Below are positions 1-56,456 of a DNA stretch of 64,000 bases, piece after piece. This DNA comes from Eledone cirrhosa (lineage: Eukaryota): positions 26,102,001 to 26,166,000 of the forward strand of contig OZ024763.1 in assembly GCA_964016885.1 (NCBI GenBank), in the 5' to 3' direction. The notes under the pieces were generated by a model, which was given only the letters and a program-made list of their open reading frames with translations, did no database searches and was not told the DNA's origin. Numbering within the stretch: position 1 is the stretch's first letter; each line of letters opens with the position of its first letter. The translations under genes and the position numbers were made by a program.

Positions 1-3000
1 CTCCAGTCCACTGTATCCTTGAACAAGACACTTTATTACACGTTGCTCCAGTCCACTGTATCCTTGAACAAGACACTTTATTACACGTTGCTCCATCCAC
101 TGTATCCTTGAGCAAGACTCTTTATATCACGTTGCTCCAGTCCACTGTATCCTTGAACAAGACACTTTATTACACGTTGCTCCATCCACTGTATCCTTGA
201 ACAAGACACTTTATTACACGTTGCTCCATCCACTGTATCCTTGAGCAAGACACTTTATTTCACGTTGTTCCAGTCCACTGTATCCTTGAACAAGACACTT
301 TATTACACGTTGCTCCAGTCCACTTTATCCTTGAACAAGACACTTTATTACACGTTGCTCCAGTCCACTGCATCCTTGAACAAGACACTTTATTTCACGT
401 TGCTCCAGTCCACTGTATCCTTGAGCAAGACACATTATTTCACGTTGATCCAGTCCACTGTATCCTTGAACAAGACACTTTATTTCACGTTACTCCAGTC
501 CACTGTATCCTTGAACAAGACACTTTATTACACGTTGCTCCAGTCCACTTTATCCTTGAACAAGACACTTTATTACACGTTGCTCCAGTCCACTGCATCC
601 TTGAACAAGACACTTTATTTCACGTTGCTCCAGTCCACTGTATCCTTGAGCAAGACACTTTATTTCACGTTGATCCAGTCCACTGTATCCTTGAACAAGA
701 CACTTTATTTCACGTTACTCCAGTCCACTGTATCCTTGAACAAGACACTTTATTTCACGTTACTCCAGTCCACTGTATCCTTGAGCAAGACACTTTATTT
801 CACGTTACTCCAGTCCACTGTATCCTTGAGCAAGACACTTTATTTCACGTTGCTCCAGTCCACTGTATCCTTGAACAAGACACTTTATTTCACGTTACTC
901 CAGTCCACTGTATCCTTGAACAAGACACTTTATTTCACGTTGCTCCACCCACTGTATCCTTGAACAAGACACTTTATTACACGTTGCTCCATCCACTGTA
1001 TCCTTGAACAAGACACTTTATTTCACGTTACTCCAGTCCACTGTATCCTTGAACAAGACACTTTATTTCACGTTACTCGAGTCCACTGTATCCTTGAACA
1101 AGACACTTTATTTCACGTTGCTCCATCCACTGTATCCTTGAACAAGACACTTTATTTCACGTTACTCCAGTCCACTGTATCCTTGAACAAGACACTTTAT
1201 TTCACGTTACTCCAGTCCACTGTATCCTTGAACAAGACACTTTATTTCACGTTGCTCCATCCACTGTATCCTTGTACAAGACACTTTATTACACGTTGTT
1301 CCAGTCCACTGTATCCTTGAACAAGAGACTTTATTACACGTTGCTCCAGTCCACTGTATCCTTGAACAAGACACTTTATTACACGTTGCTCCATCCACTG
1401 TATCCTTGAACAAGACACTTTATTACACGTTGCTCCAGTCCACTGTATCCTTGAACAAGACACTTTATTTCACGTTGCTCCAGTCCACTGTATCCTTGAA
1501 CAAGACACTTTATTTCACGTTGCTCCAGTCCACTGTATCCTTGAACAAGACACTTTATTTCACGTTGCTCCAGTCCACTGTATCCTTGAACCTAGACACT
1601 TTATTTCACGTTGTTCCAGTCCACTGTATCCTTGAACAAGACACTTCATTACACGTTGCTCCAGTCCACTGTATCCTTGAACAAGACACTTTATTACACG
1701 TTGCTCCATCCACTGTATCCTTGAACAAGACACTTTATTACACGTTGCTCCATCCACTGTATCCTTGAACAAGACACTTTATTTCACGTTGCTCCAGTCC
1801 ACTGTATCCTTGAACAAGACACTTTATTTCACGTTGCTCCAGTCCACTGTATCCTTGAACAAGACACTTTATTACACATTGCTCCATCCACTGTATCCTT
1901 GAACAAGACACTTTATTACACGTTGCTCCAGTCCACTGTATCCTTGAACAAGACACTTTATTACACGTTGCTCCATCCACTGTATCCTTGAACAAGACAC
2001 TTTATTACACGTTGCTCCATCCACTGTATCCTTGAACAAGACACTTTATTTCACGTTGCTCCAGTCCACTGTATCCTTGAACAAGACACTTTATTTCACG
2101 TTGCTCCAGTCCACTGTATCCTTGAACAAGACACTTTATTTCACGTTGCTCCATCCACTGTATCCTTGAACAAGACACTTTATTACACGTTGCTCCATCC
2201 ACTGTATCCTTGAACAAGACACTTTATTTCACGTTGCTCCAGTCCACTGTATCCTTGAACAAGACACTTTATTTCACGTTGCTCCATCCACTGTATCCTT
2301 GAACAAGACACTTTATTTCACGTTGCTCCAGTCCACTGTATCCTTGAACAAGACACTTTATTACACGTTGCTCCAGTCCACTGTATCCTTGAACAAGACA
2401 CTTTATTTCACGTTGCTCCAGTTCACTGTATCCTTGAACAAGACACTTTATTTCACGTTGCTCCATCCACTGTATCCTTGAACAAGACACTTTATTACAC
2501 GTTGCTCCATCCACTGTATCCTTGAACAAGACACTTTATTTCACGTTGCTCCAGTCCACTGTATCCTTGAACAAGACACTTTATTTCACGTTGCTCCATC
2601 CACTGTATCCTTGAACAAGACACTTTATTACACGTTGCTCCATCCACTGTATCCTTGAACAAGACACTTTATTACACGTTGCTCCATCCACTGTATTCTT
2701 GAACAAGACACTTTATTACACGTTGCTCCATCCACTGTATCCTTGAGCAAGACACTTTATTACACGTTGCTCCAGTCCACTGTATCCTTGAACAAGACAC
2801 TTTATTACACGTTGCTCCAGTCCACTGTATCCTTGAACAAGACACTTTATTACACGTTGCTCCAGTCCACTGTATCCTTGAACAAGACACTTTATTACAC
2901 GTTGCTCCATCCACTGTATCCTTGAGCAAGACTCTTTATATCACGTTGCTCCAGTCCACTGTATCCTTGAACAAGACACTTTATTACACGTTGCTCCATC

Positions 3001-6000
3001 CACTGTATCCTTGAACAAGACACTTTATTACACGTTGCTCCATCCACTGTATCCTTGAGCAAGACACTTTATTTCACGTTGTTCCAGTCCACTGTATCCT
3101 TGAACAAGACACTTTATTACACGTTGCTCCAGTCCACTTTATCCTTGAACAAGACACTTTATTACACGTTGCTCCAGTCCACTGCATCCTTGAACAAGAC
3201 ACTTTATTTCACGTTGCTCCAGTCCACTGTATCCTTGAGCAAGACACATTATTTCACGTTGATCCAGTCCACTGTATCCTTGAACAAGACACTTTATTTC
3301 ACGTTACTCCAGTCCACTGTATCCTTGAACAAGACACTTTATTACACGTTGCTCCAGTCCACTTTATCCTTGAACAAGACACTTTATTACACGTTGCTCC
3401 AGTCCACTGCATCCTTGAACAAGACACTTTATTTCACGTTGCTCCAGTCCAATGTATCCTTGAGCAAGACACTTTATTTCACGTTGATCCAGTCCACTGT
3501 ATCCTTGAACAAGACACTTTATTTCACGTTACTCCAGTCCACTGTATCCTTGAACAAGACACTTTATTTCACGTTACTCCAGTCCACTGTATCCTTGAGC
3601 AAGACACTTTATTTCACGTTACTCCAGTCCACTGTATCCTTGAGCAAGACACTTTATTTCACGTTGCTCCAGTCCACTGTATCCTTGAACAAGACACTTT
3701 ATTTCACGTTACTCCAGTCCACTGTATCCTTGAACAAGACACTTTATTTCACGTTGCTCCACCCACTGTATCCTTGAACAAGACACTTTATTACACGTTG
3801 CTCCATCCACTGTATCCTTGAACAAGACACTTTATTTCACGTTACTCCAGTCCACTGTATCCTTGAACAAGACACTTTATTTCACGTTACTCCAGTCCAC
3901 TGTATCCTTGAACAAGACACTTTATTTCACGTTGCTCCATCCACTGTATCCTTGAACAAGACACTTTATTTCACGTTACTCCAGTCCACTGTATCCTTGA
4001 ACAAGACACTTTATTTCACGTTACTCCAGTCCACTGTATCCTTGAACAAGACACTTTATTTCACGTTGCTCCATCCACTGTATCCTTGAACAAGACACTT
4101 TATTACACGTTGTTCCAGTCCACTGTATCCTTGAACAAGAGACTTTATTACACGTTGCTCCAGTCCACTGTATCCTTGAACAAGACACTTTATTACACGT
4201 TGCTCCATCCACTGTATCCTTGAACAAGACACTTTATTACACGTTGCTCCAGTCCACTGTATCCTTGAACAAGACACTTTATTTCACGTTGCTCCAGTCC
4301 ACTGTATCCTTGAACAAGACACTTTATTTCACGTTGCTCCAGTCCACTGTATCCTTGAACAAGACACTTTATTTCACGTTACTCCAGTCCACTGTATCCT
4401 TGAACCTAGACACTTTATTTCAGGTTGTTCCAGTCCACTGTATCCTTGAACAAGACACTTTAATTCACGTTGCACCAGTCCACTGTATCCTTGAACAAGA
4501 CACTTTATTTCACGTTGCTCCATCCACTGTATCCTTGAACAAGACACTTTATTACACGTTGCTCCATCCACTGTATCCTTGAACAAGACACTTTATTTCA
4601 CGTTGCTCCAGTCCACTGTATCCTTGAACAAGACACTTTATTTCACGTTGCTCCAGTCCACTGTATCCTTGAACAAGACACTTTATTACACGTTGCTCCA
4701 GTCCACTGTATCCTTGAACAAGACACTTTATTACACGTTGCTCCAGTCCACTGTATCCTTGAACAAGACATTTATTACACGTTGCTCCAGTCCACTGTAT
4801 CCTTGAACAAGACACTTTATTACACGTTGCTCCAGTCCACTGTATCCTTGAACAAGACACTTTATTTCACGTTGATCCAGTCCACTGTATCCTTGAACAA
4901 GACACTTTATTTCACGTTACTCCAGTCCACTGTATCCTTGAACAAGACACTTTATTACACGTTGCTCCAGTCCACTTTATCCTTGAACAAGACACTTTAT
5001 TACACGTTGCTCCAGTCCACTGCATCCTTGAACAAGACACTTTATTTCACGTTGCTCCAGTCCACTGTATCCTTGAGCAAGACACTTTATTTCACGTTGA
5101 TCCAGTCCACTGTATCCTTGAACAAGACACTTTATTTCACGTTACTCCAGTCCACTGTATCCCTGAACAAGACACTTTATTACACGTTGCTCCAGTCCAC
5201 TGTATCCTTGAACAAGACATTTATTACACGTTGCTCCAGTCCACTGTATCCTTGAACAAGACATTTATTACACGTTGCTCCAGTCCACTTTATCCTTGAA
5301 CAAGACATTTTATTACACGTTGCTCCAGTCCACTGTATCCTTGAACAAGACACTTTATTACACGTTGCTCCAGTCCACTGTATCCTTGAACAAGACACTT
5401 TATTACACGTTGCTCCAGTCCACTGTATCCTTGAACAAGACATTTATTACACGTTGCTCCAGTCCACTGTATCCTTGAACAAGACACTTTATTACACGTT
5501 GCTCCAGTCCACTGTATCCTTGAACAAGACACTTTATTTCACGTTGATCCAGTCCACTGTATCCTTGAACAAGACACTTTATTTCACGTTGATCCAGTCC
5601 ACTGTATCCTTGAACAAGACACTTTATTTCACGTTACTCCAGTCCACTGTATCCTTGAACAAGACACTTTATTACACGTTGCTCCAGTCCACTGTATCCT
5701 TGAACAAGACACTTTATTACACGTTGCTCCAGTCCACTGCATCCTTGAACAAGACACTTTATTTCACGTTGCTCCAGTCCACTGTATCCTTGAGCAAGAC
5801 ACTTTATTTCACGTTGATCCAGTCCACTGTATCCTTGAACAAGACACTTTATTTCACGTTACTCCAGTCCACTGTATCCTTGAACAAGACACTTTATTAC
5901 ACGTTGCTCCAGTCCACTGTATCCTTGAACAAGACATTTATTACACGTTGCTCCAGTCCACTGTATCCTTGAACAAGACATTTATTACACGTTGCTCCAG

Positions 6001-56249: not shown

Positions 56250-56456
56250 ATACAGCTGGTTAAATTGAGTTGTACCTGTCATTCAAACGACCGGCTTTGT
56301 CACATACTGTCACGCCGAATCTCCCTGAGAACTACGTTTCCAGTACATGTGACTGTGGAATGCTCAGCCACTTACGGACTAACCACCTTCATGAACAGAT
56401 AGTTCTATTGATCGTGTCAACTGGAACACTCGTCTTCGGAAACGACGGAGAACCAC
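56217..56456 (+). mobile_element. CORE-SINE-like element remnant (core plus 3' body), contiguous with the last satellite monomer
   Basis: The final monomer continues into ATACAGCTGGTTAAATTGAGTTGTACC, which parallels the end of the MIR/CORE core (CATCTGTAAAATGGG). The following ~190 bp is independently shown to be an interspersed repeat by its inverted homologue at 56975-57146. The family assignment is from recollection, not a search. Confidence 0.8.

What the first reader, a model, noticed from the sequence alone, without database searches (positions are those of the whole stretch)
1..56456. A >56 kb satellite apparently amplified from the CORE domain inside a single SINE copy
Seen: edge monomers read GTGTCCTTGAGCAAGACACTTTATTTCACGTTGCTCCAGT, and the last monomer runs with no gap into a ~200 bp non-tandem body that has a second, inverted copy 520 bp away. 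Established: the MIR/CORE-SINE core begins TGTGACCTTGGGCAAGTCACTTAAC and ends CATCTGTAAAATGGG, and CORE-SINEs are known from cephalopods. Inference: a 45-bp internal segment of one SINE was amplified more than 1,200 times in place, leaving the parent's 3' half at the boundary. TE-derived satellites are known in general, but an array this large made from the conserved, functionally unexplained CORE domain with its parent still attached may be undescribed.
Basis: partly seen in the sequence, partly recalled or inferred. Interest (0 to 1): 0.85.

Follow-up and report, generated by a model that had tools for sequence, protein, structure and literature searches.

The report
Satellite grown from a SINE's CORE
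At least 1,263 head-to-tail copies of a 45-base piece of a jumping element's conserved CORE segment run into that element's rear half; the array likely grew by unequal DNA exchange, a kind of satellite already described in reptiles and here seen in what is probably an octopus-like mollusc.

Summary
Positions 1-56,217 are an unbroken array of 1,263 units of 44-45 bp, 95% alike. The unit is the 5' 45 nt of the CORE domain: 36-37 of 45 letters match bivalve BivaCORE-SINE2 and 31 of 45 match MIR (by eye). In runs of three organisms, dispersed copies read B-box-like head, this unit, then this same body, so array and body are one SINE family. The array grew by multi-kb block duplications (4,166 of 4,174 bp identical). 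It is not a new kind. Vassetzky et al. 2023 describe SINE-derived satellites with the parent's end attached on one side, with nearly 950 and over 1,200 units, and the snake unit already ends in the 5' CORE fragment. What is new is the likely mollusc host and a CORE-only 45-bp unit. In-place origin from this very copy is plausible (about 0.6) but unproven: the left end lies outside the window, the monomers look younger than the body, and the same junction occurs outside the window and in a second organism.

The parts
1..56217 (+). Satellite array, 1,263 units of 44/45 bp, each the 5' 45 nt of the CORE domain; open at the left edge of the window
   Evidence: CORE identity by eye against sequences printed
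43610..51957 (+). Recent tandem duplication of a 4,174-bp block (94 monomers); the largest of several nested block duplications
   Evidence: 4,166 of 4,174 columns identical, control 3,966 of 4,221; 87 of 94 monomers identical; other blocks
38001..42500 (+). Locally homogenised sub-domain: 90 of 102 units are the 44-bp form
54701..56217 (+). Diverged edge zone: pairwise identity 0.893 against 0.948-0.969 inside; 2.38 rare alleles per unit against 0.16-0.23; holds most of the SINE-like G-start units
55993..56037 (+). The single unit that has the SINE-family alleles at both main diagnostic sites; used as reference
   Evidence: family alleles read from loose-end consensuses
56218..56249 (+). Terminal unit, 5'-shortened by an 8-bp deletion bounded by a 2-nt microhomology; its 3 differences from the reference unit all also occur in the array
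   Evidence: sequence
56250..56272 (+). Remaining 3' part of the CORE domain (end approximate)
   Evidence: collinear with BivaCORE-SINE2 and MIR by eye and with loose-end consensuses
56273..56463 (+). 3' body of the SINE; an old, diverged copy that is also present at the orthologous place in organism B
   Evidence: contig depth in the thousands against about 8 in the flank; X4 record 20 collinear over 56,252-56,445 and 56,538-57,072
56967..57150 (-). Separate 5'-truncated copy of the same SINE body, 74% identical, without the monomer part
   Evidence: depth peak at 56,963-57,152

Best explanation
The array is a satellite made of the first 45 bases of the CORE domain of an abundant tRNA-related SINE and ends in that SINE's 3' half; it likely began as an internal tandem duplication in this old SINE copy and likely grew by unequal exchange, with no function needed. 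Shown: the unit is CORE; head, unit and body are contiguous in dispersed copies; the array holds nested multi-kb block duplications; its edge is the least homogenised part. Inferred: the founding duplication (slippage or unequal crossover between copies, joining CORE position 45 to position 1 over a 1-nt microhomology), an origin before organisms A and B split, unequal crossover or conversion as the engine, and neutrality. The SINE-derived-satellite part I put at about 0.95, the in-place part at about 0.6.
For: CORE identity: 36-37 of 45 to BivaCORE-SINE2 (one gap) and 31 of 45 ungapped to Ther1/MIR, by eye. Contiguity: loose ends behind 56,216 read into the window's body in 834 (X1), 566 (X4) and 1,144 (X10) contigs and 3,568 reads (X21). 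Loose ends before 56,171 carry a B-box-like motif in 815, 817 and 753 contigs (shown rows only; 1,550 rows not shown). Growth: runs of up to 31 identical monomers at fixed lags against 4-6 in 20 shuffles; 626 of 1,263 units lie in duplicated blocks. In place: all 3 differences of the terminal unit also occur in the array; SINE-like alleles are concentrated next to the body; the body sits at the orthologous place in organism B, and the 45-bp junction is found in B too (8 contigs), in X1 (10 contigs) and in raw reads of a second sample of A (35 reads, 7 starts), but in 0 contigs of organism E.
Against: The monomers look younger than the body. They differ from the family-like unit by 3.17 of 45 on average, and no difference is fixed. 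The body differs from read consensuses by 4 of 28 to 5 of 30 (by eye). At 14-17% body divergence the chance of no fixed difference is 0.002-0.006, but at the 6% floor set by the A-B comparison it is 0.22, so this is suggestive only. Junction variants seen in X1 contigs are absent from the window (0 matches for 4 of 4 X1 variants). The short overhangs that begin a new unit have the G allele as consensus in 75 (X1) and 74 (X4) contigs, although 11 of 1,263 window units have it; so much of this satellite lies elsewhere. No listed piece of X1 spans the array-body joint (24 pieces shown, 53,916 not shown).
Confidence: 0.6

Rival explanations
1. The satellite arose elsewhere, from a younger copy or as a multi-locus family like snake sSat3, and was joined to this old SINE's 3' half by recombination or template switching through the shared CORE. 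The attached body would then be a captured neighbour, not the parent.
For: No fixed difference between monomers and the family form, although the body is old. An 8-bp deletion with 2-nt microhomology sits exactly between the array and the terminal unit. Junction variants and G-form junctions that are absent or rare in the window are common in the contigs of A and B. Most squamate sSats keep only one SINE end.
Against: The terminal unit shares 3 of 3 of its differences with array alleles. The in-register join and the SINE-like edge need no second step under the in-place model. The missing variants could lie in the unseen left part of this array.
Confidence: 0.3
2. The array is a selected structural satellite (centromeric or subtelomeric heterochromatin) or a source of CORE RNA, kept for function.
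For: It is large, homogeneous and still expanding; the junction is shared by organisms A and B; squamate sSats favour subtelomeres.
Against: The unit lacks the head, so it carries no B box of its own. 1,243 of 1,263 units carry a change at position 4 that breaks a pair of the small CORE stem, and that stem folds no better than shuffles (z -0.49). There is no regular higher-order repeat (best lag identity 0.19). Chromosomal position is unknown.
Confidence: 0.07
3. The length or the array-body joint is an assembly artefact.
For: No read or contig listed spans the array or the joint; contigs cannot confirm length.
Against: 136 distinct monomers among 1,261, arranged in position-dependent domains with a diverged edge. 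Duplicated blocks differ at a few sites. The tandem junction is in raw reads of another sample, and 56,403-57,009 is matched with 0 differences by an X1 contig.
Confidence: 0.03

Closest known systems
SINE-derived satellites (sSat1-3) of squamates, above all snake sSat3 (Vassetzky et al. 2023, PMC10702118)
   Same: Tandem unit cut from part of a tRNA-related SINE; an extended terminal unit on one side that runs to the SINE's end; long loci more homogeneous (94% at 320 units); nearly 950 and over 1,200 units reported; the 67-nt snake unit ends in the 5' CORE fragment of Squam3 (my reading).
   Different: Here the unit is 45 nt (theirs about 67-290), is CORE only without head or box B, has irregular 1.8-7.5 kb block duplications rather than di/trimer alternation, and lies in a probable mollusc. 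The authors left open whether sSats occur outside squamates.
CORE-SINE superfamily: BivaCORE-SINE2 (scallop), Ther1/MIR, octopus OR1/OR2
   Same: The same CORE sequence directly behind a B-box-like head; several 3' bodies share it. The unit roughly spans the 5' 45-bp part that Nishihara et al. 2016 call conserved in all CORE-SINEs.
   Different: Whether the parent is OR1, OR2 or another family could not be tested, as their sequences were not obtained. The exact limits of the published 45-bp part are in a figure not held, so the match of limits is approximate.
Tandem-like HCD-SINE arrays of bivalves (PMC11481361)
   Same: Tandem structures from conserved-domain SINEs in molluscs.
   Different: Those are 2-15 units of at least 150 bp; the screen would have missed a 45-bp unit.

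Membership tests
CORE-SINE (parent element) | Central domain homologous to the ~65-bp CORE | tested here: met
   36-37 of 45 to BivaCORE-SINE2, 31 of 45 to Ther1/MIR, collinear into 56,250-56,272; counted by eye, no E-value
CORE-SINE (parent element) | tRNA-related head with box B just upstream of CORE in family members | tested here: met
   B-box-like motif in loose-end consensuses before 56,171-56,177 in all 4 runs; consensus agreement only 0.5-0.8
CORE-SINE (parent element) | Box A and a complete head | not testable with these tools
   loose ends are limited to 30 letters; the head of this copy, if any, lies left of the window
CORE-SINE (parent element) | Dispersed and highly repeated | tested here: met
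   hundreds of distinct contigs per run continue from the unit into this body; body depth in the thousands against about 8 in the flank (not a copy number); second copy in the window
CORE-SINE (parent element) | LINE-derived 3' end, tail and target-site duplication | not testable with these tools
   no LINE library on hand; left flank missing
Octopus OR1/OR2 | Sequence identity with the published consensus | not testable with these tools
   consensus not found
SINE-derived satellite (sSat) | Unit shorter than the SINE and matching part of it; at least four middle monomers | tested here: met
   1,263 units of 45 nt
SINE-derived satellite (sSat) | Extended terminal unit that runs to the SINE terminus on one side | tested here: met
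   56,218-56,463; repeat depth ends in the bin 56,431-56,468
SINE-derived satellite (sSat) | High homogeneity in long loci | tested here: met
   mean pairwise identity 0.947
SINE-derived satellite (sSat) | Same unit at many loci | tested here: inconclusive
   junction variants absent from the window exist, but may belong to the unseen part of this array
SINE-derived satellite (sSat) | Subtelomeric position | not testable with these tools
   no genome held

The most novel reading that the evidence does not exclude
The 5' 45-bp CORE module, the only part shared by all CORE-SINEs, is itself duplication-prone and has seeded satellites independently in snakes and in octopods. Here one SINE copy, split between its head and its tail, grew into a lineage's major heterochromatic or centromeric satellite before two species parted. 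That would turn the untested idea that conserved SINE domains are recombination hotspots into a genome-wide count of breakpoints.
Probability: 0.12. Interest if true: 0.65.

Novelty: new member of a known kind. Interest (0 to 1): 0.3.

Why it matters
It extends SINE-derived satellites beyond squamates, a question their describers left open, to a probable mollusc. The unit is shorter than theirs and CORE only, and the array is fully homogenised and still growing. With the left end and the orthologous locus it would be a dated example of satellite birth from one retroposon copy. It also bears, weakly, on the unproven idea that conserved SINE domains are recombination hotspots. It does not reveal a function of CORE: the array shows no sign of keeping CORE's stem or promoter.

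Tried and rejected
No own genome is held, so the left end, the genome-wide loci and the chromosomal position are open. Pattern scans gave 0 loci in 5 of 5 scans: viral, prokaryote genomes and metagenomes. Rfam on 55,500-64,000 gave 98 matches up to E 5, none at a gathering score and none on the unit or body. ARAGORN found 0 genes. No RNA holder was listed, which says nothing on expression. Depth was not used as a copy number: the monomer's excess comes largely from other SINE families that share CORE and from deep RAD loci. A hairpin-driven origin is not supported: 0 of 4 folds beat shuffles, z from -1.14 to +1.25. A regular higher-order repeat was rejected: best lag identity 0.19 against 0.088 by chance. 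A coding role was not pursued: the longest stop-free stretches are 119-283 codons, as a 44/45-bp repeat yields. A link between the array and the inverted copy was rejected: it lacks the unit and is only 74% like the body. Per-column allele counts were one base out of register and were discarded and redone; the block identities and motif counts are unaffected. Whether the 40 unaligned letters at the start of X4 record 20 are CORE or tandem cannot be read from the output. Earlier scan notes: 4 of 4 look-ups were empty.
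Full report
OBSERVATION. Tandem Repeats Finder gives one array at 1-56,217, period 45, 1,263.3 copies, 95% matches. Cutting it into units gives 640 of 45 bp, 609 of 44 bp and 14 others among 1,263, with no interruption and no inverted unit; an earlier cut gave 136 distinct sequences among 1,261 units. Mean pairwise identity is 0.947. The array is open at the left edge. The last unit (56,218-56,249) has lost 8 bp at its 5' end and runs on into non-tandem sequence. The inverted copy is real (136 of 203 columns, score 125 against at most 37 in 200 shuffles) but has no monomer part.

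WHAT THE UNIT IS. No repeat library is on hand, so I compared by eye with consensus sequences printed in supplements. The unit matches scallop BivaCORE-SINE2 (PMC4824008) at 36-37 of 45 letters with one gap, and Ther1/MIR (PMC7983390) at 31 of 45 without a gap. Collinearity continues into 56,250-56,272, so the unit is the first 45 nt or so of the ~65-nt CORE and the rest of CORE lies in the 'body'. Nishihara et al. state that only the 5' 45 bp are shared by all CORE-SINEs; their figure is not held, so the agreement of limits is approximate. The host is not given. That it is an octopod is my inference, from recalled octopus SINEs, the closer match to the mollusc CORE, and the published octopus CORE-SINEs OR1/OR2. 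The family could not be named.

THE PARENT FAMILY. I laid 4 of the 23 listed runs on 56,165-57,300: X1 and X21 (organism A), X4 (B) and X10 (E). Loose ends before the unit carry a B-box-like motif in all four runs (815, 817 and 753 contigs at 56,171). Loose ends behind the unit read into the window's own body in 834, 566 and 1,144 contigs and 3,568 reads. Other loose ends show a second body behind the same CORE. Repeat depth covers 56,165-56,468 and 56,963-57,152 and falls to about 8 between them. So head, unit and body form one dispersed SINE, and the inverted copy is another truncated member. One X4 contig is collinear with the body (27 other letters, 10 gaps over 56,252-56,445) and with the flank (62 other letters, 55 gaps over 56,538-57,072): this SINE copy is older than the A-B split. 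The tables show only the best-supported rows (548 joints, 1,550 loose ends and 53,916 pieces are not shown).

HOW THE ARRAY GREW. Identical monomer strings recur at fixed lags for up to 31 units, against 4-6 in 20 shuffles. Blocks 43,610-47,783 and 47,784-51,957 agree at 4,166 of 4,174 columns, against 3,966 of 4,221 for a control. Other blocks recur at about 1.8, 3.2, 4.2, 7.4 and 14.9 kb, and 626 of 1,263 units lie in such blocks. Allele frequencies change in domains along the array, and the last 1.5 kb is the most diverged part (identity 0.893; 2.38 rare alleles per unit against 0.16-0.23). This is the pattern expected of unequal crossover or conversion acting on multi-monomer blocks and sparing the edge (established knowledge; the mechanism is inferred). 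The 45-bp junction is in X1 (10 contigs), in raw reads of a second sample of A (35 reads, 7 starts) and in B (8 contigs), and in 0 contigs of E. The satellite therefore likely predates the A-B split and is still expanding.

IN PLACE OR CAPTURED. For in place: the in-register join, the SINE-like alleles next to the body, and the fact that all 3 differences of the terminal unit also occur in the array (one in 71% of units, one in 74 units of which 71 lie in 1-22,000, one in 9 units). Against: the monomers have no fixed difference from the family form (mean 3.17 of 45), while the body differs from read consensuses by 4 of 28 to 5 of 30 letters. The chance of no fixed difference is 0.002-0.006 at that divergence but 0.22 at the 6% floor from the A-B comparison, and mixed subfamilies may inflate the body figure. 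Four of 4 junction variants read from X1 contigs are absent from the window. Short overhangs starting a new unit have the G allele as consensus in 75 and 74 contigs, though it is rare in the window. So much of the satellite lies outside the window, in the left part of this array or at other loci. I put in-place origin at about 0.6 and capture at about 0.3.

FUNCTION. The unit has no box B. The small stem at the start of CORE shows paired changes between MIR, the scallop SINE and this family (by eye), but 1,243 of 1,263 units carry a change that breaks one pair, and folding is no better than shuffles. I see no sign of selection on CORE in the array. Position and chromatin are unknown.

COMPARISON WITH WHAT IS KNOWN. 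Vassetzky et al. 2023 (PMC10702118) describe SINE-derived satellites in 56 squamate genomes. [quoted passage not shown] Loci reach 320, nearly 950 and over 1,200 units; 950 units of 67 nt are about 64 kb (my arithmetic). Squam3 derives from Ther1/MIR and keeps a 28-nt CORE fragment, and the snake monomer printed in their supplement ends in that fragment (my reading). Architecture, size and CORE content therefore all have precedent. The differences are the 45-nt CORE-only unit, the block-wise growth and the probable mollusc host; the authors say it is uncertain whether such satellites are restricted to squamates. Bivalve SINE arrays have 2-15 long units. I found no paper on a cephalopod SINE-derived satellite in the listings (searches returned 0 papers). 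The library lacks most subscription journals, and Dfam, Repbase and SINEBase were not searchable, so it may already sit in a repeat library.

WHAT I SAW OF EACH PAPER. PMC10702118: parts 1-4 of 5 of the text and supplementary file 1 of 3 readable; seven further files, in formats not readable here, may bear on the CORE content of sSats. PMC7983390: passages of text and supplements. PMC4824008: passages, supplement part 1 of 4 and passages. PMC11481361, PMC4758252, PMC12692304, PMC12054243: passages. PMC5804259: passages and one supplement passage. Gilbert and Labuda 1999 (not held) and Ohshima and Okada 1994: nothing seen, cited through the above.

VERDICT. A real and large CORE-SINE-derived satellite: a new member of a described kind, probably the first noted in a cephalopod. 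Interest 0.3. The boldest reading left open, CORE as a recurrent seed of structural satellites, has probability about 0.12.

Noticed in passing
window 57,202-57,290: A near-perfect hairpin (27-bp arms, 96% complementary, 13-nt loop; the arms extend about 10 bp further by eye). It is highly repeated in organism A (X1 depth 10,000-22,000) and partly in E, but at background depth or absent in B: a MITE-like family with patchy distribution.
   Followed up: partly
window 59,124-59,462 (+) and about 57,480-57,635 (-): Three copies of a second SINE-like family. Two lie in tandem 200 bp apart, 93% alike over 139 nt and with the same 3' end; only the second has an A/B-box-like head. It looks like a two-unit local duplication of a SINE part. 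Its likeness to the Nin/Deu domain is recalled, not tested (one search gave no consensus).
   Followed up: partly
loose ends behind 56,208-56,215: At least two other 3' bodies follow the same CORE in dispersed copies, so several SINE families in these genomes share the unit; only one matches the body here.
   Followed up: no
window 38,001-42,500: A sub-domain almost wholly of 44-bp units (90 of 102) with its own alleles, inside the mixed 44/45-bp array.
   Followed up: partly
window 61,992-62,673 and 62,969-64,000: A degenerate TCTA microsatellite of about 171 units and a TA-rich compound microsatellite of over 1 kb that runs off the right edge; these account for most of the sub-threshold Rfam microRNA matches.
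   Followed up: no
joints table, run X4: One contig of organism B shows a tandem junction in another register (back 40 rather than 45, depth 145), hinting at a second, independent duplication in the same CORE segment.
   Followed up: no
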